Of a stretch of DNA of 48,975 nt, positions 8,889 through 42,601 are shown in pieces. Below the pieces are notes generated by a model. The model was not told where the DNA came from. It worked only from the letters and a program-made list of their open reading frames with translations, and searched no databases. Made by a program: the position numbers and the translations under genes. Source of the DNA: a virus (lineage: Duplodnaviria > Caudoviricetes); the IMG/VR virus record IMGVR_UViG_3300043540_000102, positions 1 to 48,975 of that record; one strand, written 5' to 3'. Position 1 is the first letter of the stretch, and every line of letters starts with the position of its first letter.

Positions 8889-8917
8889 AGATTAGTCGAA
8901 GTTGTAACCGAAGTCAA
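8889..8917 (-). promoter_or_regulatory. Sigma70-like early promoter
   Basis: TTGACT-17 bp-TAATCT. Confidence 0.65.
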
Positions 8918-8958
8918 GTCCCTTTCGAAGAATATCTTCAGGCCGGGAACCCCGGGGC

Positions 8959-9732: not shown

Positions 9733-9761
9733 GTTCTAGTTGATACAACCGGAGAAGTCAA
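9733..9761 (-). promoter_or_regulatory. Sigma70-like early promoter
   Basis: TTGACT-17 bp-TAGAAC. Confidence 0.6.
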
Positions 9762-9780
9762 GTGTGTATCAGAAAGATTT

Positions 9781-11739
9781 CTAGATTATTTTCTCCTTGG
9801 CGTCGCCCCACGACGGCCCGCGCTCGATATCCACGCTCATTGGGATGGAAAGCGGGATGGCGTCCACCATCAGCTTCCCGCAGGCCCGGGCGTCGTCCGG
9901 ATTGTCGAAGGAGAAACCAAGCTCATCGTGGATTTGAATCATCGGGCAATAGCCTGCATCCCAGATATCCAGCATGGCGGTCTTCATCTGGCGGGCGGCG
10001 CTTCCCTGAACGAGATGGTTGAACGCCTTGTGGGTGTAGGCGCGGCGAATGTTGCCCTCGCCCCAAGTCTCGACTGCCGCCGCGTAGGGGCGAGCGGTCT
10101 GGCCTTTCTCAAAACAATCCTCTTCCCAAAGGTCATAATGGACCTTCGCCCCATCCAGCAGCCTCACATAACCCCGCTGAGACGCCCAAGTAGAGATGAC
10201 CTTGCTTGCCTGCGAGACAAAGGGCAGCTCGCGATCATATTGGGCCATGGTGGATTTCGCCTCGAACGGGCTCATGCCCGTCATGATCGCGAATTGGGCC
10301 ACACCGGCTCCGAACGCCTTGGCAAAGTTCACGTCCTTCGCGCGGCGGCGGATGAGCCGGGTGATCTCCACGACGTAGTTGTGAAAGTCGGTGGTCGGGT
10401 CCTCGCGATAGCGCCTGACGGCGATGTCCGCCCCTTCGATGTGGAGTCCCGGGGGGAGCTTGTCCGGCGGGAGCATCTGGAGGATATATGCCACGTGGAC
10501 GATGAGCCGGTATTCCTGTTGGCTGTAGTCGATGGCGTACCAGCTCCCAAATTCAGGGAGGAAGCACCGGCGGATGCGCGGGGCCAGCTCATCGTCGCGG
10601 GATGGCATCTGCTGTAGCGGCGGGTCCGAGTAGGAGAACCGATGCGACCTTGTGCCCCCGTTCTCACTTTTGAATTGGTTGATCGAGGCGTAAATGCGAC
10701 CGTGCTGGTTGTACCCGCGAATGTAGGTGCCGAGAAACTTGTTGGCGGCGTCGTCTATCTGCTTGGCCCGGGTAATGAGGCGGGGCAGCTGGGCGGGATG
10801 GTCCTTCATCCACGACGATTCGAATGATGGATTGCCGGCGGCTGTCCTTGGATAGTCGAGGCTCTGCGAATCGAAGATTTCCACCATCTTCTTGCCAGAA
10901 CGGAATTCCGACAGGCTGACAGGGCGGCCGAGGATATCCCTGATGGACGCAATGGTTGTGGTCAACTTGGAGTTGAATTCGATGATCGTCTGGTCAACCG
11001 CGTTCTCATCAATCCGGATGCCCCGGCGACGCATAGCCAGCGTCATCGGGATAAGGCGCATCTCCTTCAGGTAGGCGGCATAAACCCCTTCCTCGATCAC
11101 CCGGGGCAGCAGGGCATGATAGGCTGCGAGGGTCACAACCGCGTCGGTCTCGGCGTAGGGTCCGACGTATTGGGCCGGGAGCCGCCACATGTTCTCGGAG
11201 ACCTTGCCCTTGGGGATTCCCCGGTCAGCCGCCGCCTGATCCATCAGGCGCGTATCTTTCCCGGGAATTCCGATCCAGCGGCAAATTCCGTCCAAGCTGT
11301 ACGACAAGAGGCTTTCAGTGATAAAGACCGCGAGCGCTCCGGTGTCCCCGATATTCTTGGGTGGCTTGATCCCCCATTCCGTTTCGGTCCAACCCAGATC
11401 GTAGGAAATGTTGTGGCCTACAATGGTTGTGCCTTCTTGGGAGAATAACTCTCTCAAGAAGGCACCGACCCTTCCGTGATCCCAATTCGCCGTCTCGGGG
11501 TGATTGATGGGCAGGTAGATGGCCCCGCCTTCCCAAGCGAGCGAAACCCCGATCACGCAGCCCTTCCCGACGCACCAGCCGGGGCCTTTACCGTTCTGGA
11601 GCCCCTCATCCTTGGTCTCCAAGTCGAAGGCGACCACAGTGGCGTCACGAAGATTGGGCAGGTCAGTCGGGACCTTCCAACTGGATTCCGTAGGGAACAT
11701 CAGAACCTGCTTGGGTTGGGCGAAGAACTTGGATGCCAT
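9781..11739 (-). CDS. polA: DNA polymerase, family A, with 3'-5' exonuclease
   Basis: Exo motifs FDLET, GHNISYD and YAETD; motif A IDYSQQEYR; motif B RRAKDVNF; motif C QIHDEL. Start taken at MASKFF. Confidence 0.95.
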   Translation of the reverse strand: MASKFFAQPKQVLMFPTESSWKVPTDLPNLRDATVVAFDLETKDEGLQNGKGPGWCVGKGCVIGVSLAWEGGAIYLPINHPETANWDHGRVGAFLRELFSQEGTTIVGHNISYDLGWTETEWGIKPPKNIGDTGALAVFITESLLSYSLDGICRWIGIPGKDTRLMDQAAADRGIPKGKVSENMWRLPAQYVGPYAETDAVVTLAAYHALLPRVIEEGVYAAYLKEMRLIPMTLAMRRRGIRIDENAVDQTIIEFNSKLTTTIASIRDILGRPVSLSEFRSGKKMVEIFDSQSLDYPRTAAGNPSFESSWMKDHPAQLPRLITRAKQIDDAANKFLGTYIRGYNQHGRIYASINQFKSENGGTRSHRFSYSDPPLQQMPSRDDELAPRIRRCFLPEFGSWYAIDYSQQEYRLIVHVAYILQMLPPDKLPPGLHIEGADIAVRRYREDPTTDFHNYVVEITRLIRRRAKDVNFAKAFGAGVAQFAIMTGMSPFEAKSTMAQYDRELPFVSQASKVISTWASQRGYVRLLDGAKVHYDLWEEDCFEKGQTARPYAAAVETWGEGNIRRAYTHKAFNHLVQGSAARQMKTAMLDIWDAGYCPMIQIHDELGFSFDNPDDARACGKLMVDAIPLSIPMSVDIERGPSWGDAKEKII

Positions 11740-12089: not shown

Positions 12090-12694
12090 TGGATGAATTC
12101 CTTGAACAGGTTGGTGAGGATTTCGGTCTGGCTGTGGTGGGCCAGCTCGATGGTAAGAGTGAGCCGCTTCGCAAGGTAGAGGTTCACCTGAACCCAAGCC
12201 GAGTCTGCCAGTTCCGTCTTGTATTCTTGGACCTTAAGCAGGCAGCGCTCGGCGACGATCCAGCCGTATTTGGAGCCGAGGAGCCACTCATGGAGCCCCT
12301 CCTCAGCCATCTCGATATATTCGCTGACCTTGATCTTCTTGGCCACGGAGGGCGCGGACGGGGGCGCGGCGGGGATATCCCAGTATTCGAGCAGGTTGTT
12401 GAGGGCGGTTTCCTCCAGACGATTGTGAGCAACCTTGAAGTCCTTGTCCCGGGCCTTCGACGGATAGGGTGCATCGCCCACGGCGATTTCCCCGCAGTCG
12501 TGAAACATGATAGCCTGCATCACATTCTTCTCCGGAACGCCGAAGATGCTGGTGTAAACCCGCAGGAGCTGCCACGTGTGTTCGGCGACCGATTGCCGGT
12601 GAAGCGTTGGCCAAGTGTGATAGCGTTCGACCTGACCCGCGAGCCGGAGATCAGATAGCACCAGATCGGCGGACGAATCGTCTTTCTTAAGCAT
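12086..12694 (-). CDS. HD-domain 5'-deoxynucleotidase (YfbR-like)
   Basis: 'V-x-RYH...QSVAEHTW...FHDCGE-x-x-x-GD-x-PYP-x-K'. Confidence 0.85.
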   Translation of the reverse strand: MLKKDDSSADLVLSDLRLAGQVERYHTWPTLHRQSVAEHTWQLLRVYTSIFGVPEKNVMQAIMFHDCGEIAVGDAPYPSKARDKDFKVAHNRLEETALNNLLEYWDIPAAPPSAPSVAKKIKVSEYIEMAEEGLHEWLLGSKYGWIVAERCLLKVQEYKTELADSAWVQVNLYLAKRLTLTIELAHHSQTEILTNLFKEFIQ

Positions 12695-13748
12695 GCTTCA
12701 CTTCCTTCTGTTTCAGCGCCCTATCGCGCCTATTAAACCATTCTTCGGCCGCCTGCTTCCAGTCCGGGGCGGTGACCCGATTCATGTGATATTCTCGACC
12801 CACCTTATTATGGGTCTTGTGCTCAGCGTAAGCCGCCGCGAGAGCGAATACTGTAGTCAAGAATGGGTTCCGAGTCGAGACAAAAATGTCGTTCTCGAAA
12901 AGCGGAGGGCCTTGGACGTGAAGCCGGTCCAACGCCTCCCAGAGCCGCGACAGGTCTTCATCGAAGGTGCTCGGATCACCGACCAGCGGCAGCATCTCAC
13001 CGTAGTTCATGTCCTGAGTGGAGAGGCTCAACGCGACCGTATCCGAGTGGGTGTAGTCGTCGGCTCCGATCCGCTCCTTTATCATCTCCCACACGTCCAT
13101 GTACATGTGATAGTCGTTCGACACCTGGGTGTATTCGCCCATCGGGACGCCGACCATGGATGCGATGTACTCCTGAAGGAGCGCGAAGTGGACCGCGTTG
13201 GCCCCGTAGGTTCCAAAAATGATGTCGTTGGAACGGTTGTACACCGTCATGTCGAGTCTGCCCAAGCGAATCCTGAAGACCGCGCAAAGGTTACACGGCT
13301 TTGCTATCTCCGGGGGCGTCGAGAAGTCTTCACTATCCCACATCTGTAGGACGGCCTGACGGGTGTTCGGGTCCACCTTGAGCTTGTCGATGATGTCCTG
13401 TATCTGGTCAACTTCGAAGTAGCTGCGCCAGCGGTAGCCGTAGGCGTCGGGGATGATCCCTGAAACCCCGTAGCGGGACGAAAAACCCTTAATGTACATG
13501 TCCAGAGGTCCCCCGTCCTCGCGCCCCTCCAACATCCACATCGCTTCGATAAGGTGGAAGAATGGGTTGGCGTCCCGGTAGGGATTCAGGAGGACATGTT
13601 GCTTGGGGTAGCGGTACACAGTCGCGACAGGCCCCGGATAGGTGATTACATCGCCGTTCCGGGACGGTTCCACCATGCCTTTGCGCAGAAGGAGGGCGAT
13701 GCCCCGGGGGAGGGCCTCGCGCACGTTCTTGACGGACAATCCAAACAT
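12687..13748 (-). CDS. Thymidylate synthase-fold dUMP hydroxymethylase-like protein
   Basis: AYG-x-RWR, TRQAVLQMWD, catalytic PCN, RSND...GANA (Asn indicates dUMP specificity) and H-x-Y motifs; long C-terminal extension; context of 5hmdU-modifying genes. Confidence 0.8.
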   Translation of the reverse strand: MFGLSVKNVREALPRGIALLLRKGMVEPSRNGDVITYPGPVATVYRYPKQHVLLNPYRDANPFFHLIEAMWMLEGREDGGPLDMYIKGFSSRYGVSGIIPDAYGYRWRSYFEVDQIQDIIDKLKVDPNTRQAVLQMWDSEDFSTPPEIAKPCNLCAVFRIRLGRLDMTVYNRSNDIIFGTYGANAVHFALLQEYIASMVGVPMGEYTQVSNDYHMYMDVWEMIKERIGADDYTHSDTVALSLSTQDMNYGEMLPLVGDPSTFDEDLSRLWEALDRLHVQGPPLFENDIFVSTRNPFLTTVFALAAAYAEHKTHNKVGREYHMNRVTAPDWKQAAEEWFNRRDRALKQKEVKHA

Positions 13749-14326
13749 TATCTCGACACTCCAAGTAGTTCGCACGACCTGTAGAAAGCTTCCTCACGGC
13801 CAAGGAATTCGACGGGGATTCCGTGCTTAAGGAGCTTCTCCGAGTTGCGGCGGATCGCTGTGACCTTATCGGTGATCAGGTCTGGGTTGACGGGCTCGAA
13901 AGGCTTCTGCAGCCTGATGGCCCGCTCCTTCCTCCGCTCGTTGACCGAGTACAGGCACGCCGCGAGCGGGGTGGACAGCTCGATGACATGGAGAGCCTGC
14001 CCGCTATCGGCGTGCAGCTTGGTCATCCGGTCAAAGCCGTACATCGACAACAGGACGCCTTCGAAGATGACGTGGTTGCCCATCCGGTGGAATTCGAGAA
14101 GGGTCTCGCAAATCCAGTCGGCGATGCCCTTTGCGGAGAAATTGTCACAACCTCCGGTTGGCGTTTCGTAGGGTCCAAAGACCACGACGGGGTAGGTCGT
14201 GCACTGATAGCCGATGACCTTGCAATCCGGATTTTTGATGGGGCGATACTGGCCACGGTGGGCCATGACCCGGCGGACAACGGTGGTCTTTCCGGCCCCG
14301 TTGGCTCCTCGAAGATTAAGCAGCAT
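13748..14326 (-). CDS. P-loop nucleotide kinase (candidate 5hmdUMP kinase)
   Basis: N-terminal Walker A RGANGAGKTT, GGCD, VIFEG and an R-x-x-x-R lid. Confidence 0.75.
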   Translation of the reverse strand: MLLNLRGANGAGKTTVVRRVMAHRGQYRPIKNPDCKVIGYQCTTYPVVVFGPYETPTGGCDNFSAKGIADWICETLLEFHRMGNHVIFEGVLLSMYGFDRMTKLHADSGQALHVIELSTPLAACLYSVNERRKERAIRLQKPFEPVNPDLITDKVTAIRRNSEKLLKHGIPVEFLGREEAFYRSCELLGVSR

Positions 14327-14432
14327 GCGATTCCCTCCAAGCCTTGATGGCTCCAACTAGCTCTTGAAACTTGTCCCCCAGAAATTCCCCATCTTTAGCC
14401 CAGACGTTGGGCCTGGGGATATTCCGCCTCAC

Positions 14433-15260
14433 TCATCTGACCTCCTCGGGCATCACCGATAGCATTCTCTCTGCCGTCTGCCCCCAACCATGGAGGTTGT
14501 GGCGGGTTTCCTTGATGTCCTTCCCAACCCAATAGCGTCCGTTGCGATAGGACTTGTATTTACACAGGACGGTTTCCGCTTCCTGCATGCTGCAGGCGCG
14601 ATGCCCCGAGGCGGGCTCGCGGAAGATCGACACGGACTTGATCAGCTGATCAAAGACCCAAGCTTTCGACGGCGGGGGCAGGGCTCCTTCCATATCCGCA
14701 AGGAGCAGGTCTAAGCACGCAGCGGGCTGAGCGTAAAGCGTCGTTTTCTCATCGAAGATGACGGTGTGGCCCCAGACGACTTCGAGCATGTCGGCGATCT
14801 TAAACCCGATCCAAGGACCAAACTGTGGCCAGCCCCGGGCGATGTCGATGACCTGAGCCGCCGTGACAGACGCCTCCAGATCACAAAACCACGCCATGAC
14901 CGGGCGGCGCGAGAAATGGTTGATGGCGTCCACGCATTTCTGGCCACGGAAGTGCCGCCGCTCAGCACCCCGGGGCCAACGCCCACCGTTCGGTGGGGGA
15001 GCGACGTTCCCGGCAGCTACAAGCATCCCCTTCCAATAATCCCTATCCTGGAATTCCGAGAGGTAGGACGCCACCCCAACGTCATAGAAGCACCAATAGG
15101 CGAACAGCCATCTGGAGAGCTGCGGAAAAGGGAGCTGAAGGTTGGTGAGCCCAACATAAACCGGGTCAAGGTCCTTGGTGTCGATCAGCTGGGCGGCGAA
15201 GTTGCCCACTGTGAGGTGTTGGGGAGAAAGATTGGGCTGGAGGAAGAGCGTCTGGCTCAT
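14433..15260 (-). CDS. Amino acid:DNA transferase (aGPT-Pplase2/ADDT family)
   Basis: DLDPVY, WLFAYWCFY, WPRG-x-ERRHFRG, FGPWIGFKIADM and QEAETVLCK motifs of the glycosylase-fold transferases of M6/PaMx11-type phages. Confidence 0.85.
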   Translation of the reverse strand: MSQTLFLQPNLSPQHLTVGNFAAQLIDTKDLDPVYVGLTNLQLPFPQLSRWLFAYWCFYDVGVASYLSEFQDRDYWKGMLVAAGNVAPPPNGGRWPRGAERRHFRGQKCVDAINHFSRRPVMAWFCDLEASVTAAQVIDIARGWPQFGPWIGFKIADMLEVVWGHTVIFDEKTTLYAQPAACLDLLLADMEGALPPPSKAWVFDQLIKSVSIFREPASGHRACSMQEAETVLCKYKSYRNGRYWVGKDIKETRHNLHGWGQTAERMLSVMPEEVR

Positions 15261-15300
15261 GGTCGTCCTTCTGGCGGGCCTATCCCCGCGTTCTGTATCG

Positions 15301-15329
15301 AATCTACCCGACCGCGCCCGGGGCGTAAA
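15301..15329 (-). promoter_or_regulatory. Sigma70-like promoter for the ADDT-to-polymerase operon
   Basis: TTTACG-17 bp-TAGATT. Confidence 0.5.
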
Positions 15330-15332
15330 GCG

Positions 15333-15363
15333 AAAAAGGCCGCCAAATGGCGACCTTCTTTTT
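15333..15363. terminator. Probable bidirectional terminator
   Basis: A5-AGGCCGCCA/TGGCGACCT stem with A and T tracts on the two sides. Confidence 0.55.
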
Positions 15364-15395
15364 GGTTGTATCCTTTTTCAAAAGGCAGCGACAAT

Positions 15396-15446
15396 TTGGC
15401 CGAGCGCTTTGATTGCAGCCATGCGAATTTCCTCATCTAAGTCCAG
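15396..15446. repeat. 51-bp direct repeat, copy 1
   Basis: 48/51 identical to 16542-16592. Confidence 0.95.
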
Positions 15447-15541
15447 GAGAATGGTGATGTTCTTGAGTCCAGGAGAATGGTGATGTTCTTGAGTCCAGGA
15501 GAATGGTGATGTTCTTGAGCCCAGGAGAATGGTGATGTTCT
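15440..15541. repeat. Tandem array, about 4 x 26 bp (AGTCCAGGAGAATGGTGATGTTCTTG)
   Basis: Units start at 15440, 15466, 15492 and 15518; the last is 24 bp with one mismatch. No spacers. Confidence 0.95.
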
Positions 15542-15582
15542 CCGGGTTGTGGCCCACCGCGACCAATACAGAAGTCAAGCCC

Positions 15583-15864
15583 CTAATCGAAGATTTTTCT
15601 CAGCTCCAACACATAGTCCTCCTGCAGCTCAACGGCAGTGATGTCTAAGGGGATTCGGTCCCGGTGGGAGAGAGCAATCAGAGGCTTCAGAAGGCTCCCA
15701 GTCCCTGCCGAAGGCTCCAGAATTCGAACCGGGCGGCCGAGGCGCTTGTGCGTCGCGACGATATCCGGCCAGATGGCTTCGGCGATCCGCTCCGCCGTTT
15801 CAGGCGGGGTGAAGAAGTCGCCGAAGGTCTTGGTCATGCGGCCTGTTTTGAGGTGAGTGGTCAT
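15583..15864 (-). CDS. SAM-dependent amino-methyltransferase, N-terminal (SAM-binding) half
   Basis: Motif X FFTP, motif I ILEPSAGTGSLL and motif II AVEL; ends before motifs III and IV. Confidence 0.8.
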   Translation of the reverse strand: MTTHLKTGRMTKTFGDFFTPPETAERIAEAIWPDIVATHKRLGRPVRILEPSAGTGSLLKPLIALSHRDRIPLDITAVELQEDYVLELRKIFD

Positions 15865-16568
15865 TTTTGATAATCCGGGTGGAGCTGGTTGAGAAACTTC
15901 TGGGCACCCGCGAGAGATAAAGCCGCAGTTCCGGCTTTCCTTCGCTTGTCGTCCTCCCTCATGATTTTGTTGTATAAGCTTATCGACTCAGGATGGTTCA
16001 ACTGATTTGCGATGCTCTGCAAAGTGGCAGCTCCTCCGGTGATGAGAATTTTGCCTGTGGTGTATGAACCATTTTCAATTATCTCCCGGCGAGATGTCAC
16101 CTGACCCCAAAGAGGTTGATTGCCCCCGAGCATCCTTCTATGTTGCGCGAGTATCAAGACGGGCTCATCCAGAGATTGGTTCAATTTCCAAGTTGCAATC
16201 TGGATGCCCCAAAGAGAATCCGGTACAGGCTCCCGGTTCACCCCCGGGAGGGCTTCGCTTGGACCGATAGACACCAAACCGCCTTTAGTCCCCCGGAGAC
16301 CAACAAATGAGATGTTGCCCAAGCTGGGCATGTATCCTGGGAATCGTTTTGCGTCATTATCGGGGAGCAAGAACAACAATCTCCCGTCAGCGGAAAGAAG
16401 CTTTTGCCCAGCCAACACAAATTTCTTCCAGAATACTGTACCTTTGCCATCACTCCACGGTGGGTTCCCAACTACAAAGTCAAACCGCTCCGCTCCGAAG
16501 TCGTGCGTTAGGAAGTCAGTGAGCTTGACGGTGAGGTTCAATTGGCCGAGCGCTTTGATTGTAGCCAT
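15861..16568 (-). CDS. SAM-dependent amino-methyltransferase, C-terminal (catalytic) half
   Basis: Motif III DFL, motif IV FDFVVGNPPW and LL-x-x-DGRLLFLLP. Likely start is the ATG at 16568 after GAGGA; a TTG at 16598 is the alternative. Lower GC than the flanks. Confidence 0.8.
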   Translation of the reverse strand: MATIKALGQLNLTVKLTDFLTHDFGAERFDFVVGNPPWSDGKGTVFWKKFVLAGQKLLSADGRLLFLLPDNDAKRFPGYMPSLGNISFVGLRGTKGGLVSIGPSEALPGVNREPVPDSLWGIQIATWKLNQSLDEPVLILAQHRRMLGGNQPLWGQVTSRREIIENGSYTTGKILITGGAATLQSIANQLNHPESISLYNKIMREDDKRRKAGTAALSLAGAQKFLNQLHPDYQK

Positions 16569-16592
16569 GCGAATTTCCTCATCTGGGTCCAG
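16542..16592. repeat. 51-bp direct repeat, copy 2
   Basis: Contains the RBS and first codons (MATIKALGQ) of the catalytic MTase half. Confidence 0.95.
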
Positions 16593-16601
16593 AAACAAGA
16601 C

Positions 16602-17408
16602 CTATTTTCCACGCAGGATCGCGGCGACCCGAAGTGCGGCATAGGCCGCGCCAACCGTCCCGCTCTTGGCCCCGCCGGTGGCGAGGATCGCCCGGCCGTT
16701 CTCCGCCACGAGGCAGGGGGCGGTCGTGACAGCGTAGGGGCGTGCGCCGAGGGTCGGCTGCAGGTCGGTGGCCCCACTCTTCGCCGAGCAGCGCGCCTGC
16801 GACACCGCGAGCCGCTCCGGGGTGATCGACTTCGGGATCAGTGCCGTACCGTCTCCGATCCAGCTGCGGCCGTCGCTCATGTTGAAGGCGACCACCTGCC
16901 GGTAGGGGGCCCATGTGTCGATAACCGGGTTGGGAATCGGTGACCCCCGGAAGGACCAACCGAGCTTCGCAGACACATCGCACGAATAAAGCTCCGGGGA
17001 CCAGATGCCAGCCGCCACGACGATTCGCTTGGCAGTGTAGTCGCCGACTGAGCCGCTTGCCACCACGCGGTCAGGGTACTGGCGGACATCGCTGATGTGG
17101 TCGTTGATGTGCGGCCCCCCGAGAATATCCCCCGGTTCGATGCGTCCGCAAGTCGTCTTGAAGCCGGAAGGGTGGATGGTGAATTCGACAGTGTGGACCT
17201 GATAATACAGCTTGAGAAGGTCCATGCACGGATCGAGGCTACCCCCGAAGTTGGTCAGCCACGACGGCTTGATCACACACCCGGCGGCGCGCGACCCAGC
17301 GGTGGGCTCCTTGTTGTCGATCACGAGCACGCTGTACCCGAGGGCGGTCAGGTGTCGGGCGATCACAGAGCCGAACAGCCCTGCGCCGATAACGATCACG
17401 TCAATCAT
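16602..17408 (-). CDS. FAD-dependent oxidoreductase (DAO/glycine oxidase-like; candidate flavin lyase of DNA hypermodification)
   Basis: VIVIGAGLFG Rossmann motif, GS-x-AAG, VVAAGIWS, GARPY and ATGG-x-K-x-G; start MIDV with an AAGGA RBS. Confidence 0.85.
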   Translation of the reverse strand: MIDVIVIGAGLFGSVIARHLTALGYSVLVIDNKEPTAGSRAAGCVIKPSWLTNFGGSLDPCMDLLKLYYQVHTVEFTIHPSGFKTTCGRIEPGDILGGPHINDHISDVRQYPDRVVASGSVGDYTAKRIVVAAGIWSPELYSCDVSAKLGWSFRGSPIPNPVIDTWAPYRQVVAFNMSDGRSWIGDGTALIPKSITPERLAVSQARCSAKSGATDLQPTLGARPYAVTTAPCLVAENGRAILATGGAKSGTVGAAYAALRVAAILRGK

Positions 17409-17432
17409 GTGGTTTATCCTTGGGTAAGGCGG

Positions 17433-17456
17433 AAAGCCCCGCCGGGTGGCGGGGCT
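17433..17456 (-). terminator. Intrinsic terminator
   Basis: AGCCCCGCC/GGCGGGGCT stem followed by TTT. Confidence 0.55.
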
Positions 17457-17461
17457 CCTGT

Positions 17462-17524
17462 TCAGGCGAGGAAGCGCAGGCGGCGGTGGTGCTCCTTCCG
17501 CTCGATTTCCTCGTATTTGCACAT
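17462..17524 (-). CDS. 20-aa peptide MCKYEEIERKEHHRRLRFLA
   Basis: AAGGAG RBS; ends directly before the terminator. Confidence 0.4.
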   Translation of the reverse strand: MCKYEEIERKEHHRRLRFLA

Positions 17525-17536
17525 GAAAGTGCTCCT

Positions 17537-17803
17537 TCAGGACTGCTGGGTGGGGAGGGTGTGGACGGCGGAGGCGATGGACTGCGCGACCAGCGCCCGC
17601 TCGATGATCTTCTGGTTGGTGGTCTGGCCGACAAGTGCCCAGATGAAGCAACCGATCCATCCAGCACCCGACCAGCCGATGAGAAAATTGATGAGGGCAA
17701 CCCCGGCGGCGTTGTCGTGGCCACGGCCCGCGGCGATGACGGCGGGGAGGAAGTAGAAGAAAATGAAGGTGGCGATGAGGATGAATGCGACGAGAGAGGC
17801 CAT
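17537..17803 (-). CDS. imm: Superinfection immunity protein (T4 Imm-like)
   Basis: 'YFLP-x-x-IA-x-x-R-x-H-x-N...IN-x-x-x-GW...GWI-x-x-x-IWA' pattern. Confidence 0.85.
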   Translation of the reverse strand: MASLVAFILIATFIFFYFLPAVIAAGRGHDNAAGVALINFLIGWSGAGWIGCFIWALVGQTTNQKIIERALVAQSIASAVHTLPTQQS

Positions 17804-17852
17804 GAGAGCGTTCCTTTTTCCGGAGCGGCCCAATCGCCGTTCCAATACAAAG

Positions 17853-17881
17853 GTTCTACCGGAGCCCAATACAGAAGTCAA
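17853..17881 (-). promoter_or_regulatory. Sigma70-like early promoter
   Basis: TTGACT-17 bp-TAGAAC. Confidence 0.6.
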
Positions 17882-17925
17882 GTGGGTTTCGAAAAATAAT
17901 TTCGCCCCCAACCCCGCTTCTTAAT

Positions 17926-18138
17926 TCACCAGCCATTGGACGCCTTCTTCCCCCGGGGAAACGGAATCACGTTAGCCGGGAGTGGAACCCCCGGGGCGGT
18001 GAGGCGCTGAGCGAGGAGCCCAGCCGCGCAGATCAGCTGGACGACCCTGCACGCGAGCAGGCCGATCAGGCTAAGGGCAACCTTCGCGAGGTTGTAAGCC
18101 ATCGCGAGGGCGCAGAGGACAACGAGAAGCTCAATCAC
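17926..18138 (-). CDS. Small membrane protein
   Basis: GTG start overlaps the upstream stop; hydrophobic N-terminal half. Confidence 0.45.
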   Translation of the reverse strand: MIELLVVLCALAMAYNLAKVALSLIGLLACRVVQLICAAGLLAQRLTAPGVPLPANVIPFPRGKKASNGW

Positions 18139-18488
18139 CCGAAAACTCCCGGGCCATAGAGGGTGGTCTGGTACTTGTAGTGTAACTTCCAGAAGTCCAT
18201 GTACAGATCGTGGAGGGGCTTCTCCTTCACGCTGGGCTTGAACTTCGGGTAGTCGATCTTGTTGACCTGATCGGCGAGGAGACCGGCGAGCAGGGTGCGG
18301 GTGATGAATGCCCTGTACGCATAATCCGCGTCCAGCGTCTCGATGATCTCGGGCTTTTTCTTGGCCCAATGCGGGAGCTTCAGGAAAGACTCCAGATGCT
18401 CCTTTTTCCGGGACCGGACCAAGACCTGCTTGGGGTTGTTGCGATCCGCAACGATGGAAAGGAAGGCGTCGTTCAAACAGACCCACAT
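18135..18488 (-). CDS. Conserved phage hypothetical protein
   Basis: MW-x-x-x-x-x-AFLSIV...LVRSR...DY-x-YRA...IDY-x-x-FK pattern. Confidence 0.7.
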   Translation of the reverse strand: MWVCLNDAFLSIVADRNNPKQVLVRSRKKEHLESFLKLPHWAKKKPEIIETLDADYAYRAFITRTLLAGLLADQVNKIDYPKFKPSVKEKPLHDLYMDFWKLHYKYQTTLYGPGVFG

Positions 18489-18489
18489 G

Positions 18490-18837
18490 TCACTTGTCCT
18501 TGAGTTGGAAAATTCCGCTGGGAAGGCGGACGATCAGACCGGCCGCCACGAGCTTGCTGGTGGAGGCGCTGACCGAGTTAGGGCTAAACCCCGCCTGTGA
18601 GAAAGCCGCCTTGAACTTATCCCGGGCCTTCGGCCCATCCGCGAGCATGCTCAGGATCATCTTCGAGCAGGCTTGGTCGGCGAGGTCGCCCATCGAATCG
18701 CGGCCCGCGTATTTGCGGCCACCAAAGACGCGCTTGGGACAGGGGGCACCCTCCTCGCCCGCAGACGGGGTGATCTGGAGCCCGGTGATGGACTTGTGGG
18801 GGATGAGCGCCCCGGTGATCGTTGAGATCATCTCCAT
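18490..18837 (-). CDS. Putative winged-helix protein
   Basis: C-terminal 'SPNSVSASTSKLVAAGLIVRLPSGIFQL'; the true start may be 18872 across a frameshift. Confidence 0.5.
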   Translation of the reverse strand: MEMISTITGALIPHKSITGLQITPSAGEEGAPCPKRVFGGRKYAGRDSMGDLADQACSKMILSMLADGPKARDKFKAAFSQAGFSPNSVSASTSKLVAAGLIVRLPSGIFQLKDK

Positions 18838-18912
18838 GGGGCGTAGAACACGAATTTGTAGAGATGGGCCATGCTGTTCTCCCTTTCTGGGCCTTATTAC
18901 CCATGGGTGTAG

Positions 18913-18941
18913 CCTTTAATGTAACAGGCTTCAGAAGTCAA
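18913..18941 (-). promoter_or_regulatory. Sigma70-like promoter
   Basis: TTGACT-17 bp-TAAAGG. Confidence 0.5.
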
Positions 18942-18958
18942 TCGCATTTTCTGAAGAT

Positions 18959-18987
18959 AAAGAGGCGAGACTCCTGCGAGTCTCGCC
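18959..18987 (-). terminator. Intrinsic terminator
   Basis: GGCGAGACTC/GAGTCTCGCC 10-bp stem followed by TCTTT. Confidence 0.6.
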
Positions 18988-18988
18988 C

Positions 18989-19507
18989 CTACCAAATCGC
19001 CCGGTAAACCGGGGCGCTCCTGGTTGGCCCGATCTGGAGCTTCGAGCCGGTGAATTCGATCCAGACACCATCCGTGTTGAGCTTCGGGGGGAACAGGATC
19101 ATGGCGTCCTTCGAGTTGTAGCGGATGATGGCCGCGAGGTTGACCCGCTCCAGCCAGTCGCGCAGCGACGGGTCCTTGTGCGCCTTAGGGAAGTCCGGGT
19201 CCACCCAGACCTGCACGACGGGCAGAATGGTCGCCTCACCCGAGTCGTTGTTGAGGGTGATCTTGTCCATGACAATGTCGATGACGTAATGGGCGCGGTC
19301 CGGGCGGGGCAGCGGCTGGTCCGTGGCCTTCCAGACGCAGGTCCACCCCCCGCATTCGAACGGGAACCCGGACTTATGATAGATTGAGCAGCCCTTAAAG
19401 GCCCGGACGTGCTCGCAGCGCACGTTTGCCCCCTTGTTAAGGCCCTCGACGGGCAGCAGGCGACAGCACAAAGTGCACTCGCCGCATTGACGGGGGGGCT
19501 TATCCAC
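18989..19507 (-). CDS. Cys-cluster (YkgJ-like) metal-binding protein
   Basis: C-x2-C-x2-CC...C-x-H...C-x-IY...P-x-x-C-x4-C. Confidence 0.7.
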   Translation of the reverse strand: MDKPPRQCGECTLCCRLLPVEGLNKGANVRCEHVRAFKGCSIYHKSGFPFECGGWTCVWKATDQPLPRPDRAHYVIDIVMDKITLNNDSGEATILPVVQVWVDPDFPKAHKDPSLRDWLERVNLAAIIRYNSKDAMILFPPKLNTDGVWIEFTGSKLQIGPTRSAPVYRAIW

Positions 19508-26086: not shown

Positions 26087-26968
26087 ATGCCCCCGCTACA
26101 GCATGAGTTTGTCCCTGAGCAGCTAAAGCTCTTCACCCAATTCATCATCGAGCGTGAGAACGTGCGCCTGCTCCGGGAGACCGGGGCTCAACCGCCGTGG
26201 ACCAGCGACCCGATCCTCAGAGCCTTTCGCTTCACGAACATTCGCCGTGAGGACGACTACGTGACGCGGTGGTATGCGAACAACTGGCGCACGCCCCACG
26301 CCGACGACCCTGATGCTTGGTTCGCGTCCTACGTCTGCCGCGTCGTGAACGAACCCGCTACACTGGAGCGGCTCGGCTACCCTGTGCCATGGGATGAGAA
26401 ACGCTTCCTCGCCACTCTCGGGCAGCCTAATCCCGGCGGTGAGCCGCTCTATCGCGCCGCCTATATGATCCGCTCCACGTCCGAGTTCAAGGGTCAGAGC
26501 AAGGCGGCCTATCTCGCAGCGATGCAGTTGACCCCGGCATGGGAGAAGAGAAGCTGGGTGCGCCCGGTCTTGGGCGACAGCCTGCAGAGCTTCTACACGC
26601 GCCTGACCTCATTGTACGGCTTGGGGAGCTTCCTATCGGCGCAGATCGTGGCCGATGTCAAGTTCATTAGGCCATTGTGCGATGCCCCGGACTGGAAGAG
26701 CTTCGCCGCAAGCGGCCCGGGGAGCCGCCGGGGGTTGAACCTTCTCCGTGGGTTTCCCATGGACGCAGCGTGGTCCGAAGATGAGTGGCGCTTGTCCCTG
26801 AATCGCCTGATCGAGGCGGTGGCCCCAACCCTACTGGCCCAGAGCATCGACCTCTCGGCGCAGGACCTACAAAATTGCTTGTGCGAAGTGTCAAAATGGC
26901 TGAAGGCCCGCAACGGGACCGGACGCCCGAAACAGAAGTATATCCCCGCCCATGGAGGAGTGGCCTGA
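26087..26968 (+). CDS. 5-hmdU DNA kinase (aGPT-Pplase1/HMUDK helical family)
   Basis: ER...PWT-x-DPIL-x-x-FRFTNIRREDD, G-x-G-x-FL-x-x-QIVAD, GPGS-x-RGL and QNCLCE-x-x-K motifs. Confidence 0.88.
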   Translation: MPPLQHEFVPEQLKLFTQFIIERENVRLLRETGAQPPWTSDPILRAFRFTNIRREDDYVTRWYANNWRTPHADDPDAWFASYVCRVVNEPATLERLGYPVPWDEKRFLATLGQPNPGGEPLYRAAYMIRSTSEFKGQSKAAYLAAMQLTPAWEKRSWVRPVLGDSLQSFYTRLTSLYGLGSFLSAQIVADVKFIRPLCDAPDWKSFAASGPGSRRGLNLLRGFPMDAAWSEDEWRLSLNRLIEAVAPTLLAQSIDLSAQDLQNCLCEVSKWLKARNGTGRPKQKYIPAHGGVA

Positions 26969-30956: not shown

Positions 30957-31343
30957 TTGGAAATGAACACCGGAGCAACCACCAAAAAGCGAGGCCCGGC
31001 CACAATGGCCAGTGAAGAGGCTCGCCGTCGCATCGCGATCCGCTGGGCACGCCCCGGCGCGCGTGAAGAGCAGTCGATTGCGGTCAAGGCCCGTCTCGCG
31101 GCCAAAGCCGAAGCCGAGGCCAAGGCAGAGCGCGCTGCCAAGCGTCTCGCCAAGAAGCTGGAGAGAGAGCAGGCCGCAAAAAAGTCGGAACCGAAGGCCA
31201 AGCGGATCAAGCCCCCAAAGGCTGTGAAGCCCGCCAAGGCCATTCCGTCGTTCAAGCTCGCCGGCAAGATCGCCGACAAGGTCAAGGCCAACCGGAAGGT
31301 CGCCCGGGAGAACGCCCGGAAGTCGCGCGCCGCAGCGGAGTGA
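30957..31343 (+). CDS. Lys/Ala-rich basic (histone-like) protein
   Basis: Amino acid composition; GGAG RBS (ATG at 30963 is the likely start). Confidence 0.6.
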   Translation: MEMNTGATTKKRGPATMASEEARRRIAIRWARPGAREEQSIAVKARLAAKAEAEAKAERAAKRLAKKLEREQAAKKSEPKAKRIKPPKAVKPAKAIPSFKLAGKIADKVKANRKVARENARKSRAAAE

Positions 31344-31939
31344 CAGAGGGCACCTACGGCGTCATTTATGCAGACCCACCGTGGGACTACGTGACGTATA
31401 GCGCGAAGGGCAGTGGGCGGTCACCGAGCGCGCACTACGACACGATGAGGCCGGAGGAGCTTGCAGCTCTCCCGGTCTCCTCGCTCGCAGCAAAGAACTG
31501 CGTACTCATGATGTGGACGACGGACACTCATCTTGAACAGGCGCTCGCCTTGATCAAGGCTTGGGGCTTCATCTACAAGACCGTGGGCTTTTACTGGGTC
31601 AAGCTGAACAAGTCGGGTGAAGGCTACTTCCTTGGCCTTGGTCATTGGACCCGATCCAACCCTGAGATGTGCCTCCTGGCGACCCGGGGGAAACCGAAAC
31701 GCAATAGTGCGTCCGTGAGAAAGCTCTTGGTCTCCTCCCTCCAGGAGCATTCCCGGAAGCCTGATGAGGCCCGCCGCCGGATTGAAATGCTGGTTGGCGG
31801 GCCTTACTGCGAGCTGTTTGCACGCGAGGCTGCCCCGGGGTGGAGCGTGGCCTATAGCAATCAGGCTGGCCTCTTCGACAACGGCCCGGTCCGCACCCGC
31901 CGCCGACCCTACCGGGGGCTGAAGTATGAGGAAAGTTGA
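31340..31939 (+). CDS. MT-A70 family adenine methyltransferase
   Basis: IYADPPW, HYDTM, WGF-x-YKT, HSRKP and ELFAR motifs. Confidence 0.92.
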   Translation: MTEGTYGVIYADPPWDYVTYSAKGSGRSPSAHYDTMRPEELAALPVSSLAAKNCVLMMWTTDTHLEQALALIKAWGFIYKTVGFYWVKLNKSGEGYFLGLGHWTRSNPEMCLLATRGKPKRNSASVRKLLVSSLQEHSRKPDEARRRIEMLVGGPYCELFAREAAPGWSVAYSNQAGLFDNGPVRTRRRPYRGLKYEES

Positions 31940-32381: not shown

Positions 32382-33645
32382 GGCGGGGATATAAGGCGTC
32401 TTTCTTCTTGCTTTTAGGCAAAAACAGGTTATGTCTAAGAAATGTTCAATGCAACGCGCATCCGTCTCTATCCTACTGAACTGCAGGCGCAAAGCCTTGC
32501 GATTCAGTTTGGCTGTGCGCGGTGGGCTTGGAACAACGCGCTGGCTCTTTGCCAGGAGACCTATCGGGCGACTGGCAAGGGCCTGAATTATCGCGCGCTG
32601 ACCATTCGGCTTCCAAAACTCAAACAGGAGTTTGAGTGGCTCAAGGCGGCGGACTCGCAGGCGCTGCAACAGTCGTTGCAGAATCTCGCCCGCGCCTATG
32701 AGAATTTCTTCGCCAAGCGCGGAAAATATCCACGCTTTAAGTCGAAACATGGACGCCAGTCGTATCAATATCCGCAGCGCGTGAAGATCGACGGCACGAA
32801 AATTTACCTGCCGAAAATTGGCTGGGTGCGCTGCGTTGTACACCGGGAGATTGTCGGGGCCTTCAAGACTGTCGCGATTTCACGCAACGCTTGCGGCCAG
32901 TTCTATGCCACCGTGCTGACTGAGGATGGCTCCGAACTCCCCGAGGTTTCGACCGACGGCAAGGCCATCGGCATCGATGTCGGCTTGACGCATCTGGCCG
33001 TCACTTCGGATGGCGCGAAATTCTCTAATCCGCGCCACCTGAACAAGGCGACGAAGAATCTCAAGCGCAAGCAGCAATCGCTATCGCGCAAAGTGAAAGG
33101 CTCGAACAGCCGGGACAAGGCCCGGCAACTGGTAGCGAGGGCACATGAGCGCGTTGCTTGCGCCCGTAAGGACTATTTGCACAAGCTGTCTCGACGGATC
33201 GTTAACGAGAACCAAGTGATCGCCGTCGAAACGCTCAACGTGAAGGGTATGATGAAGCTGCCGACTCTGGCTCGTGCCATATCGGACACGGGCTGGGGCA
33301 TGTTGGTAAACTTCGTCAAGTATAAGTCGGCGCGCGCCGGCAAGGCGTTCGTCAAGGTTGATCGCTGGTATCCGTCGAGCAAGTCTTGCTCGACGTGTGG
33401 TGCGGTCGCCGACGCCGTGCCGCTCGATGTTCGGTCGTGGAGTTGCGCCCATTGCGGCACGCATCACGATCGTGACGTGAATGCGGCGATAAATATCCGC
33501 GGCGAAGGTCTCCGGATATTGGCGGGTGGGCTGCCCGCTGCTGCTGGTGGAGGCAATGTCAGACACGGCGTGAGGCGTAATCCTCGTGTTCGTGCAGTTG
33601 CCATTGAAGCCAGAAGCCTCGCCCTTCAGGGCGAGGAGTAGTCAC
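32352..33645 (+). mobile_element. IS200/IS605-family element, TnpB only (IS1341-like)
   Basis: TTAT target immediately 5' of the element; left-end AAAA guide plus CCCCG..CGGGG hairpin; right-end GAAG guide plus CCTCGCCC..GGGCGAGG hairpin; TCAC terminus. Confidence 0.9.
32442..33641 (+). CDS. tnpB: RNA-guided endonuclease TnpB
   Basis: N-terminal HTH (RLYPT...FGCAR), RuvC motifs GIDVG, AVE-x-L and DRD-x-NAA, and a CxxC..CxxC Zn finger. Confidence 0.95.
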   Translation: MFNATRIRLYPTELQAQSLAIQFGCARWAWNNALALCQETYRATGKGLNYRALTIRLPKLKQEFEWLKAADSQALQQSLQNLARAYENFFAKRGKYPRFKSKHGRQSYQYPQRVKIDGTKIYLPKIGWVRCVVHREIVGAFKTVAISRNACGQFYATVLTEDGSELPEVSTDGKAIGIDVGLTHLAVTSDGAKFSNPRHLNKATKNLKRKQQSLSRKVKGSNSRDKARQLVARAHERVACARKDYLHKLSRRIVNENQVIAVETLNVKGMMKLPTLARAISDTGWGMLVNFVKYKSARAGKAFVKVDRWYPSSKSCSTCGAVADAVPLDVRSWSCAHCGTHHDRDVNAAINIRGEGLRILAGGLPAAAGGGNVRHGVRRNPRVRAVAIEARSLALQGEE

Positions 33646-38486: not shown

Positions 38487-38918
38487 ATGCCGCTGACCTC
38501 CAAAGGCAAAGAAATCAAGGCCGCCATGACCAAGGAATATGGGGCCAAGAAGGGTGAGCGGGTGTTCTACGCCTCGAAGAACGCCGGCAAGATCAGCGGC
38601 GTGGATGATGCCGAAGCCTTGGACCTTCCCGCCCAGCTCCGGGACGCTGAAGAGGCGCTCGGCGCTCTGGAGCCCACCGAGCGCAAGAACGCGGTGGACG
38701 ACCACAAGCAGAAGATTCAGGCGCTCCGGGACGAAATCCGCAATCAGGTCCGGTCAGCGCTCAAGGGCGAGGGCTCGAAGTCCGACGCGCTCGCCGAGCT
38801 GGAGGCGAAGCAGGACACTGAGCTATTGGTCAAGCAACTCGCCGACGCGGTGGGGGCGGCCGAAGCGCGGATGGAATCGCTGGTGTCCCAACGCAAGACC
38901 AAGGGGTTCGTCCGGTGA
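38487..38918 (+). CDS. Head-module coiled-coil protein
   Basis: N-terminal 'MPLT-x-KG-x-x-I-x-x-AM-x-x-x-YG-x-x-KGE-x-VFYAS-x-N' motif seen in phage head regions. Confidence 0.65.
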
Positions 38919-41551: not shown

Positions 41552-41832
41552 TGCCCGAAGGCCAGCTGTTCAATCCGGCACTAGGCCCGCCGCGCCTACC
41601 CGAGGACATGGTGCCCTTTTATGAGAGCTACATTCCGGTTAAGCTGGAGGGCCAGCCTGAGCGGATTGCTGCTGCTTTGGAGGCTCTCGCCGAGCGCGAC
41701 CAAGTCAAGCTGGAGGAAATCCTCAACCCTTGGGCTCCCCCCGGGGGACCCGCTGAGGTTGACCCCCAGAGCGGTTTGTCCGAGGAAGAGGAAATCGCGT
41801 TGCTGACTGAACTCGGTTTTGATTTGGATTGA
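41548..41832 (+). CDS. Small acidic protein
   Basis: GTGA overlap with the ART gene; E/D/P-rich. Confidence 0.55.
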
Positions 41833-41836
41833 GCCA

Positions 41837-42601
41837 ATGGACTTTGAGCTCCACCCCGGGGTTCTGATCGCCCTTCGAAAGCTCACCTTCAACGAGTTTG
41901 AGGTGGCTGAAGCTATGCGCGACGGTGAGCTGGCCTCGCCACAGCCGTTCGAGAATGTATTGCTGGTGGATATGCGGATCAGCGGCACTGGCGTCTCTTA
42001 TCGGCCGAAGCTGAAGGAGTGGGTGTATAGGCGGCCCGAAATCTACCTGACCAAGGACTTTCTCCGCCGGTGCCAAGGGCTCCCGGTCATCTACGAACAC
42101 CCCGAAAAAGCGATGCTTGACTCCGATTCTTTCGCGAAACAGATTGTCGGGGTGATGCAATTACCGTATATCAAAGGGGATGATGTTTGGGGCATTGCTC
42201 GGATTTATGACCGGGAAACCGCGAAGCAGCTGAGCGAGGAGACCCTTTCCACCTCACCCAGTGTGGTCTTTCGAGACCCGCAGGTGAATTACGAGGTTCA
42301 ACTAGACAATGGTGAATCCATGCTAGTTGAAGGTAACCCCTCCTATATCGACCATCTCGCAATCTGCGAGCGGGGGGTGTGGGACAAGGGCGGGGACGCC
42401 ACCGGAATTCGGGTGGACAGCGAAGGCTCGGTGCCAGTAATGGATGACCGAATTTTCGCCCTAGCCGATTCAGTTGAGTCCCTTGTAGAGCGTATCCAGC
42501 GCGTTCAAGTTAAAAAGTCCATTGACCGATTAGCAAAAAGGCTGGATAAATACGCGACCCGGAAAAAAGCTCAGATGAGCTATCTCAGGAGTTCAACATG
42601 A
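41837..42601 (+). CDS. DUF2213-like prohead protease candidate
   Basis: G-x-PVI-x-EHP, LSTSP and DHLAIC-x-x-GVWD motifs; lies before the scaffold and capsid genes. Confidence 0.75.
   Translation: MDFELHPGVLIALRKLTFNEFEVAEAMRDGELASPQPFENVLLVDMRISGTGVSYRPKLKEWVYRRPEIYLTKDFLRRCQGLPVIYEHPEKAMLDSDSFAKQIVGVMQLPYIKGDDVWGIARIYDRETAKQLSEETLSTSPSVVFRDPQVNYEVQLDNGESMLVEGNPSYIDHLAICERGVWDKGGDATGIRVDSEGSVPVMDDRIFALADSVESLVERIQRVQVKKSIDRLAKRLDKYATRKKAQMSYLRSST

What the first reader, a model, noticed from the sequence alone, without database searches (positions are those of the whole stretch)
15583..17408. Flavin oxidoreductase plus methyltransferase: a possible DNA analogue of tRNA MnmC chemistry
Known: a PaMx11-type flavin enzyme converts glycinyl-thymidine to 5-aminomethyl-dU, which is then acetylated. 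In tRNA, MnmC couples an FAD oxidase with a SAM MTase to convert cmnm5U to nm5U to mnm5U. Seen: here the FAD gene is followed within a few bases by the N-methyltransferase halves, and no acetyltransferase is present. Hypothesis: the DNA carries 5-methylaminomethyl-dU, or free 5-aminomethyl-dU. Caveat: the MTase motifs equally fit an ordinary m6A/m4C DNA MTase.
Basis: inference. Interest (0 to 1): 0.75.

Follow-up and report, generated by a model that had tools for sequence, protein, structure and literature searches.

The report
Phage thymidine modifier beside scrambled methyltransferase
This phage carries a known type of enzyme set that likely adds an aminomethyl group to thymidines in its DNA, but the methyltransferase next to it is two out-of-order fragments of an ordinary DNA-methylase type that likely do not act on that base.

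Summary
The flavin gene (16602-17408) is a true PaMx11 gp47 relative (E 7.5e-41; 10 of 13 named residues kept), and no acetyltransferase is found, but the record is only 71% complete. The 'methyltransferase halves' do not support MnmC chemistry. They are gamma-class N6-adenine/N4-cytosine DNA methyltransferase pieces in reversed order: the catalytic piece (GNPPW, no SAM-binding loop) comes first, the SAM-binding piece second. They differ in base composition and nearest kin, and sit among a 51-nt direct repeat, a 26-nt tandem array and a broken promoter copy. The four nearest flavin relatives have the flavin gene next to ADDT, and no piece has a relative in 156 flavin loci. Best reading: a recombination scar inside a PaMx11-type cluster whose DNA likely ends at free 5-aminomethyl-dU.

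The parts
16602..17408 (-). Flavin-dependent N-glycinylthymidine oxidase (PaMx11 gp47/NGTO relative), intact
   Evidence: PF01266 E 4.6e-13; PDB 8z2o E 7.5e-41 over residues 2-261; 33.6% to PaMx11 gp47
15861..16598 (-). C-terminal piece of a gamma-class (Eco57I/N6_Mtase-like) DNA methyltransferase: motifs III-VI with GNPPW, no motif X or I; likely start ATG 16568; GC3 0.57, foreign
15583..15864 (-). N-terminal piece (93 aa) of a gamma-class methyltransferase: motifs X, I, II, no catalytic motif; ends inside a promoter-like repeat; GC3 0.73, phage-like
15563..15600 (-). Broken copy of a promoter-like element: TTGACT kept, -10 box lost; 17 nt identical to the copy at 17866-17882
   Evidence: the promoter reading is by eye, one search did not call it
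15440..15541 (.). Tandem array, 26 nt x 3.9, within a remnant of methyltransferase coding sequence; breaks its frame
   Evidence: doubled contig depth fits the assembled copy number
15396..15446 (.). Direct repeat, right copy (48 of 51 nt), encoding the same stretch as the start of the C-terminal piece, followed by a stop
16542..16592 (.). Direct repeat, left copy, just behind the flavin gene stop
15333..15360 (-). Terminator-like hairpin between the methyltransferase debris and ADDT
   Evidence: -18.3 kcal/mol, z -4.9, 0 of 200 shuffles as good
14433..15260 (-). Amino acid:DNA transferase (ADDT, aGPT-Pplase2; PaMx11 gp46 relative)
   Evidence: PF18724 E 1.3e-9; gp46 E 4.2e-55; Arg loop, FGPW, E243 and C247 kept
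13748..14356 (-). 5-hmdU DNA kinase, P-loop
   Evidence: PF18748 E 4e-6; gp49 E 2.8e-21
12687..13775 (-). dUMP hydroxymethylase (thymidylate synthase family)
   Evidence: PF00303; gp51 E 2.4e-68
26087..26968 (+). 5-hmdU kinase helical domain (aGPT-Pplase1), displaced from the cluster
   Evidence: PF18723 E 2.8e-32; gp50 E 4.8e-26
17846..17903 (-). Intact copy of the promoter-like element upstream of the immunity and flavin genes
   Evidence: function inferred

Best explanation
The phage carries an intact PaMx11-type gene set predicted to turn DNA thymidines into 5-aminomethyl-dU, which likely stays uncapped, while the adjacent methyltransferase sequence is two out-of-order fragments that are likely a non-working recombination scar. 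Inferred pathway: the hydroxymethylase supplies 5-hmdU, the kinase phosphorylates it in DNA, ADDT swaps the phosphate for glycine, and the flavin enzyme oxidises the N-C-alpha bond to release glyoxylate. Inferred origin of the scar: a foreign gamma-class methyltransferase gene entered between the flavin gene and ADDT, was duplicated or circularised, and was cut at both ends, leaving its catalytic part first, part of a second methyltransferase gene behind it, a broken promoter, and a duplicated 51-nt stretch. Shown: gene content, order, class of the pieces, repeats, rarity. Inferred: all chemistry, inactivity of the pieces, and the final base.
For: Flavin enzyme: 10 of 13 residues named in PMC11472151 are kept (K48, W51, P179, Y180, R181, Q182, R210, R242, Y244, K268; F52, K202, N205 differ). 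Reversed order: on phrog_9133 the 93-aa piece maps to 730-789 and the 245-aa piece to 791-856; same order on 3 of 3 full-length phage methyltransferases. Class: 9 of the 10 non-self hits among 1.84 billion proteins are longer (253-451 aa) proteins, and 10 of 10 hit Eco57I. Two origins: GC3 0.57 and CAI 0.44 (lowest of 24 genes) against 0.73 and 0.61; a profile of the C-piece's kin does not score the N-piece at E 5. Scar. Insertion: the 4 nearest flavin relatives have flavin then ADDT with gaps of -111, -36, 176 and -28 nt. No relative of either piece in 156 loci. Uncapped state has precedent in gene content: RHph_TM26, Sonora and 3 records of 96-100% completeness have neither GNAT nor amidoligase.
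Against: Both ORFs are open and joined by an ATGA overlap, and together they cover all catalytic-domain motifs with only about one helix in duplicate, so they could be made and pair. About 29% of the genome is missing, and 3 of the 4 nearest relatives carry an amidoligase (the fourth contig is short), so a capping enzyme may lie in the gap. In 5 of 13 flank-negative loci a whole-record search did find a weak GNAT. The tree is the quick one, support 94 for the window's group, window on a long branch. Glycine specificity of ADDT is untested. Free 5-aminomethyl-dU as a final virion base was not reported in the passages read.
Confidence: 0.6

Rival explanations
1. Same pathway and same scar, but 5-aminomethyl-dU is capped by an acetyltransferase or amidoligase encoded in the missing part of the genome or by the host.
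For: Record 71% complete. 45 of 61 well-flanked flavin loci carry a GNAT or an amidoligase. Nearest relatives L008, L077, L006 carry the amidoligase. The window's helical-domain gene is already displaced by 11 kb.
Against: The record begins and ends in structural genes, so the gap likely holds tail genes. Capping genes usually lie in the cluster, which is contiguous here. Near-complete genomes without either exist.
Confidence: 0.2
2. The two pieces are translated together and assemble in trans into a working split, permuted m6A or m4C DNA methyltransferase, unrelated to the thymidine pathway.
For: Open frames, ATGA coupling, a GAGG site before ATG 16568, complementary motif sets. Naturally split and permuted C5 methyltransferases exist (PMC5944983).
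Against: The cut falls inside the SAM-binding Rossmann core; the natural C5 cases in PMC5944983 are cut between domains. The pieces differ in composition and kin. The arrangement was seen nowhere else. The phage has another, intact methyltransferase at 31340-31939.
Confidence: 0.12
3. One reading: the pieces methylate 5-aminomethyl-dU to 5-methylaminomethyl-dU, a DNA copy of MnmC1 plus MnmC2.
For: Direct adjacency to the flavin gene and no GNAT found. Intact methyltransferases of other classes do occur in such clusters (L060, L098; L029, L188, L189, L200). MnmM uses an Asn as the proposed base (PMC9976899), so an Asn at this site is not disqualifying.
Against: No match to PF05430 or PF06962. 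MnmC2 has an invariant Asp178 (PMC3648344), not NPPW. NPPY-type enzymes act on conjugated amines and amides (recalled). Pieces are broken, reversed, foreign and unique; nearest relatives lack them.
Confidence: 0.04
4. The scrambled order is an assembly artefact caused by the repeats.
For: Repeats are present; a minor contig (depth 3.9) branches off at 15566.
Against: One 3305-nt contig at depth 10.4 covers 15537-18500 with 2 differences and no gaps, spanning flavin gene, both pieces and their junctions; depth over the array fits the copy number. The run may be the source of the window, so this is a second assembly, not a second sample.
Confidence: 0.04

Closest known systems
Pseudomonas phage PaMx11 5-AcNmdU pathway (gp46 ADDT/PUGT, gp47 flavin oxidase/NGTO, gp48 GNAT, gp49 kinase; PMC8989533, PMC11472151)
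   Same: All enzymes up to 5-aminomethyl-dU have intact relatives here.
   Different: No gp48 relative in the assembled 71%; order flavin then ADDT instead of ADDT then flavin; helical-domain gene displaced; 1.34 kb of methyltransferase debris between flavin gene and ADDT.
Rhizobium phage RHph_TM26 and Stenotrophomonas phage Sonora clusters
   Same: Flavin enzyme, ADDT and kinase with no GNAT and no amidoligase in the whole record; RHph_TM26 also has flavin then ADDT with another gene between.
   Different: Neither has a methyltransferase beside the flavin gene. Their modified base was not found in the papers read.
Gamma-class N6/N4 DNA methyltransferases (Eco57I PF07669, N6_Mtase PF02384; M.BseCI, Erythrobacter phage R6L gp40, Rhizobium phage N28_2 gp73)
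   Same: Motifs X (FFTP), I (LEPSAGTG), II and IV (GNPPW) and their spacing.
   Different: Here in two ORFs, reversed, likely from two genes; all hits are below curated cut-offs.
tRNA MnmC (MnmC1 oxidase plus MnmC2 methylase) and MnmM
   Same: The flavin step is the same chemistry on DNA, as PMC8989533 already states.
   Different: The methyltransferase pieces belong to neither methylase family and are not an intact enzyme.

Membership tests
PaMx11 gp47 (NGTO) flavin oxidase | Full-length homology to gp47 | tested here: met
   E 7.5e-41 over residues 2-261
PaMx11 gp47 (NGTO) flavin oxidase | Pocket and DNA-binding residues | tested here: met
   10 of 13 kept, including W51, Y180, Q182, R242, Y244, K268
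PaMx11 gp47 (NGTO) flavin oxidase | Converts N-glycinylthymidine DNA to 5-aminomethyl-dU | not testable with these tools
   needs an assay
PaMx11 5-AcNmdU pathway | Hydroxymethylase, kinase and ADDT with catalytic Cys | tested here: met
   (F173 is Tyr and D175 is Gln here)
PaMx11 5-AcNmdU pathway | gp48-type GNAT acetyltransferase | tested here: inconclusive
   none in 48,975 nt, but the record is 71% complete
MnmC2 / MnmM aminomethyl-uridine methylases | Match to PF05430 or PF06962 | tested here: not met
   0 candidates in six frames; controls rang in 10 of 14 genomes each
MnmC2 / MnmM aminomethyl-uridine methylases | Invariant Asp178 of MnmC2 at the catalytic motif | tested here: not met
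   the motif here is GNPPW; Asp178 from PMC3648344; positional equivalence is recalled, not aligned
MnmC2 / MnmM aminomethyl-uridine methylases | Recurrent pairing with the flavin oxidase | tested here: not met
   no relative of either piece in 156 flavin loci
Gamma-class N6/N4 DNA methyltransferase | Motifs X, I, II and NPPY-type motif IV present | tested here: met
Gamma-class N6/N4 DNA methyltransferase | Motifs in the order X-I-II-III-IV on one chain | tested here: not met
   two ORFs, reversed; filed as fragments, not as a member enzyme
Naturally split or permuted DNA methyltransferase | Pieces come from one gene and associate | tested here: inconclusive
Naturally split or permuted DNA methyltransferase | Methylation activity of the co-expressed pieces | not testable with these tools
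   needs an assay

The most novel reading that the evidence does not exclude
The two reversed pieces are translated together, assemble into a split methyltransferase and methylate 5-aminomethyl-dU, so this phage's DNA carries 5-methylaminomethyl-dU, the full tRNA MnmC route rebuilt on DNA. The same chemistry is more likely (about 0.2, my estimate) in other phages found here: L060 and L098, where an intact beta-class SPPY methyltransferase sits behind the flavin gene in two separate flavin lineages.
Probability: 0.04. Interest if true: 0.78.

Novelty: new member of a known kind. Interest (0 to 1): 0.3.

Why it matters
For this window the value is modest: one more PaMx11-type cluster, probably stopping at a free primary amine in the major groove, which would be a useful chemical handle and an untested anti-restriction base. 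It also warns that adjacency alone misleads in these clusters, where the slot behind the flavin gene takes up unrelated DNA. The survey matters more: the step after the flavin enzyme looks like a swappable module (acetyltransferase, amidoligase, nothing, rarely a methyltransferase), which names concrete enzymes to assay for new DNA bases.

Tried and rejected
Close relatives of the pieces: none (word-index searches; viral contigs). Single-sequence fold of the C-piece: pLDDT 35, unusable, no fold search run. Complex prediction of the two pieces: not available, no verdict. PDB sequence search: nothing significant for the C-piece, weak hits for the N-piece including M.BseCI at E 0.013. Rfam on 14000-19000: 0. 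Promoter scan: 1 site against 1.1 expected, not the repeat element; the repeat pattern gave 3 matches against 0.76 expected, 6 of 100 shuffles as high, so the promoter reading is weak apart from the exact 17-nt duplicate. By eye the remnant at 15378-15578 has the GH-x-x-ENI stretch that precedes this region in the C-piece's kin, but the profile did not score it. The idea that simple excision at the 51-nt repeats restores one gene was rejected: a stop, the promoter remnant and the array lie between the pieces. More members of the L060/L098 methyltransferase: only L060 itself in viral contigs, none in genome contigs. No RNA holder listed. Earlier scan findings: none. The careful tree did not finish; the quick tree was used.

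Full report
Setting. The window is a whole linear virus record of 48,975 nt, estimated 71% complete, with DNA polymerase A, primase, terminase, portal and tail genes. On the minus strand the order is: immunity gene, flavin oxidoreductase (16602-17408), methyltransferase pieces (15583-16598), ADDT (14433-15260), kinase, hydroxymethylase, HD protein, polymerase. The kinase helical domain lies apart at 26087-26968.

The flavin enzyme. It matches solved PaMx11 gp47 over its whole length (E 7.5e-41). Of 13 residues named in PMC11472151 (abstract and parts 2 and 3 of the Results read), 10 are kept and F52, K202 and N205 differ. ADDT is 39% identical to gp46 and keeps the Arg loop, FGPW, E243 and catalytic C247; F173 is Tyr and D175 is Gln. 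Kinase, helical domain and hydroxymethylase all hit their PaMx11 counterparts. PMC8989533 (passages and section 21 read) shows gp47 makes 5-aminomethyl-dU (257 u) from glycinylthymidine (315 u) and states the likeness to MnmC1. The pathway up to that base is therefore well supported by homology and untested here.

Acetyltransferase. None was found by gp48 phmmer, two cluster-derived profiles, PF00583 or PF13508 (controls rang in 14 of 14). No amidoligase either. The missing 29% limits this.

The methyltransferase pieces. The first ORF (15861-16598) has DFL, GNPPW and GRLLFLLP but no motif X or I. The second (15583-15864) has FFTP, LEPSAGTG and motif II but no catalytic motif (motif names recalled). 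They are reversed: positions 791-856 versus 730-789 on phrog_9133, and the same order on 3 of 3 full-length phage enzymes (two of the three C-piece alignments are weak, E 0.02 and 0.58). A search of 1.84 billion proteins gave 10 non-self hits at E up to 0.001, all hitting Eco57I, 6 also N6_Mtase; the Atlas agrees. Neither piece matches PF05430 or PF06962. PMC3648344 (passages) names Asp178 as invariant in MnmC2; PMC9976899 (passages) proposes an Asn for MnmM. The C-piece has the lowest GC3 (0.57) and codon index (0.44) of 24 genes measured; the N-piece (0.73, 0.61) looks native. Their nearest kin differ, and a profile of the C-piece's kin does not score the N-piece.

The scar. A 51-nt repeat (48 identical) lies at 16542-16592 and 15396-15446. 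The N-piece ends inside a copy of an element found at 8907, 9755 and 17868, with 17 nt identical to the last and the -10-like box lost. Behind it a remnant of the same methyltransferase region is interrupted by a 26-nt array of 3.9 copies, then a stop and a strong hairpin. Contigs of one public run carry the same order on one 3305-nt piece at depth 10.4, and a 392-nt piece at depth 3.9 joins at 15566 with other upstream letters. Read by hand, its 30 shown letters have no stop in the remnant's frame, a weak hint of a second allele with more of the gene. That run may be the window's source. Duplication and two-sided truncation is the published model for permuted methyltransferases (PMC5944983, passages); there the natural cases are cut between domains, whereas this cut is in the SAM-binding core.

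The recurrence test. 156 loci (5 named phages of 20 records hit, 71 viral contigs, 80 of 103 metagenome contigs) reduced to 106 at 90% identity. No locus holds a relative of either piece. Among 61 loci with 2.5 kb on both sides: 21 GNAT only, 23 amidoligase only, 1 both, 16 neither, one of them with a beta-class methyltransferase (amidoligase by PF12224 in 13 of 16 members). A whole-record search of 13 of those 16 found a weak GNAT in 5, about 4 kb upstream by my arithmetic, and none in 8. RHph_TM26, Sonora and G001-G003 (96-100% complete) have neither GNAT nor amidoligase; RHph_TM26 and those three form one clade. In a quick tree of 102 rows (5 short sequences left out) the window groups with L008, L077, L006 and L078 at support 94; all four have flavin then ADDT within 176 nt, and three carry the amidoligase. 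The 1.34 kb here is thus best read as an insertion.

L060 and L098 have an intact beta-class SPPY methyltransferase behind the flavin gene (directly in L060, after a 77-codon ORF in L098), 41% alike, about 27% to other phage methylases, in flavin lineages that are not sisters; both contigs are fragments. An FkbM-like methyltransferase lies beside 5-hmdU genes in 20 of its 21 closest loci, duplicates not removed, but only 4 of 28 have the gp47-type enzyme and 14 of the 20 lack ADDT in the flank, so 5-hmdU is the likelier substrate. Against exclusivity: L183 has both a GNAT and a beta-class methylase, L029's record has a weak GNAT and L189's an amidoligase.

Literature. Searches listed no paper reporting methylaminomethyl-dU in DNA or FkbM with these clusters; amidoligase co-occurrence is in PMC8989533. 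The 2013 computational survey of these clusters (recalled) could not be read, and the figures and supplements of PMC8989533 were not seen; either may list methyltransferase-bearing clusters. PMC9599517 was read in passages and added nothing on this.

Verdict. Observation partly confirmed, interpretation partly supported. A new member of a known kind with a methyltransferase scar; interest 0.3. The methylaminomethyl-dU idea should be tested on L060 and L098, not on this window.

Noticed in passing
L060:7822-8496 (+), L098:1218-1904 (+): Intact beta-class SPPY methyltransferase behind the flavin gene, where PaMx11 has its acetyltransferase, in two non-sister flavin lineages; best candidate for a 5-aminomethyl-dU methylase, or an ordinary m4C/m6A enzyme. 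No further members found.
   Followed up: partly
L029:9239-9943, L188:9768-10478, L189:9758-10474, L190-L209: FkbM-like methyltransferase family next to 5-hmdU kinase helical-domain or hydroxymethylase genes in 20 of its 21 closest loci; mostly without ADDT or flavin enzyme, so it may O-methylate 5-hmdU.
   Followed up: partly
L077:9934-10848 and 30 more loci (family c7): Amidoligase_2 family, usually with a low-molecular-weight phosphatase-like gene, almost mutually exclusive with GNAT in flavin clusters (1 of 61 with both); likely an alternative cap on the amine.
   Followed up: partly
window 31340-31939 (+): Intact DPPW methyltransferase, phrog_359 E 2.9e-77; looks MT-A70-like (label recalled). 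It could give m6A in virion DNA and confound an assay.
   Followed up: no
window 15537-15566: A 392-nt contig at depth 3.9 in run X1 joins here with different upstream sequence: a second allele or related element.
   Followed up: partly
window 8907-8939, 9755-9785, 17866-17903, 15563-15600 (-): Four copies of a TTGACT promoter-like element at gene boundaries; one is broken.
   Followed up: partly
window 32442-33641 (+): TnpB / IS605-type insertion (399 aa) just before the terminase genes.
   Followed up: no
window 38915-41551 (+): 878-aa protein with an N-terminal NUDIX-like region among head genes; phrog_6216 is spread over this ORF, 41819-42601 and 42598-43524.
   Followed up: no
L069, L026, L046, L045/L152: Other enzymes beside gp47-type genes: Tet/JBP oxygenase, TET-associated glycosyltransferase, aspartate decarboxylase, radical SAM.
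   Followed up: no
L191:4244-5092 (+): A different flavin-like protein between ADDT and kinase, not scored by the gp47 profile, next to the FkbM-like gene.
   Followed up: no
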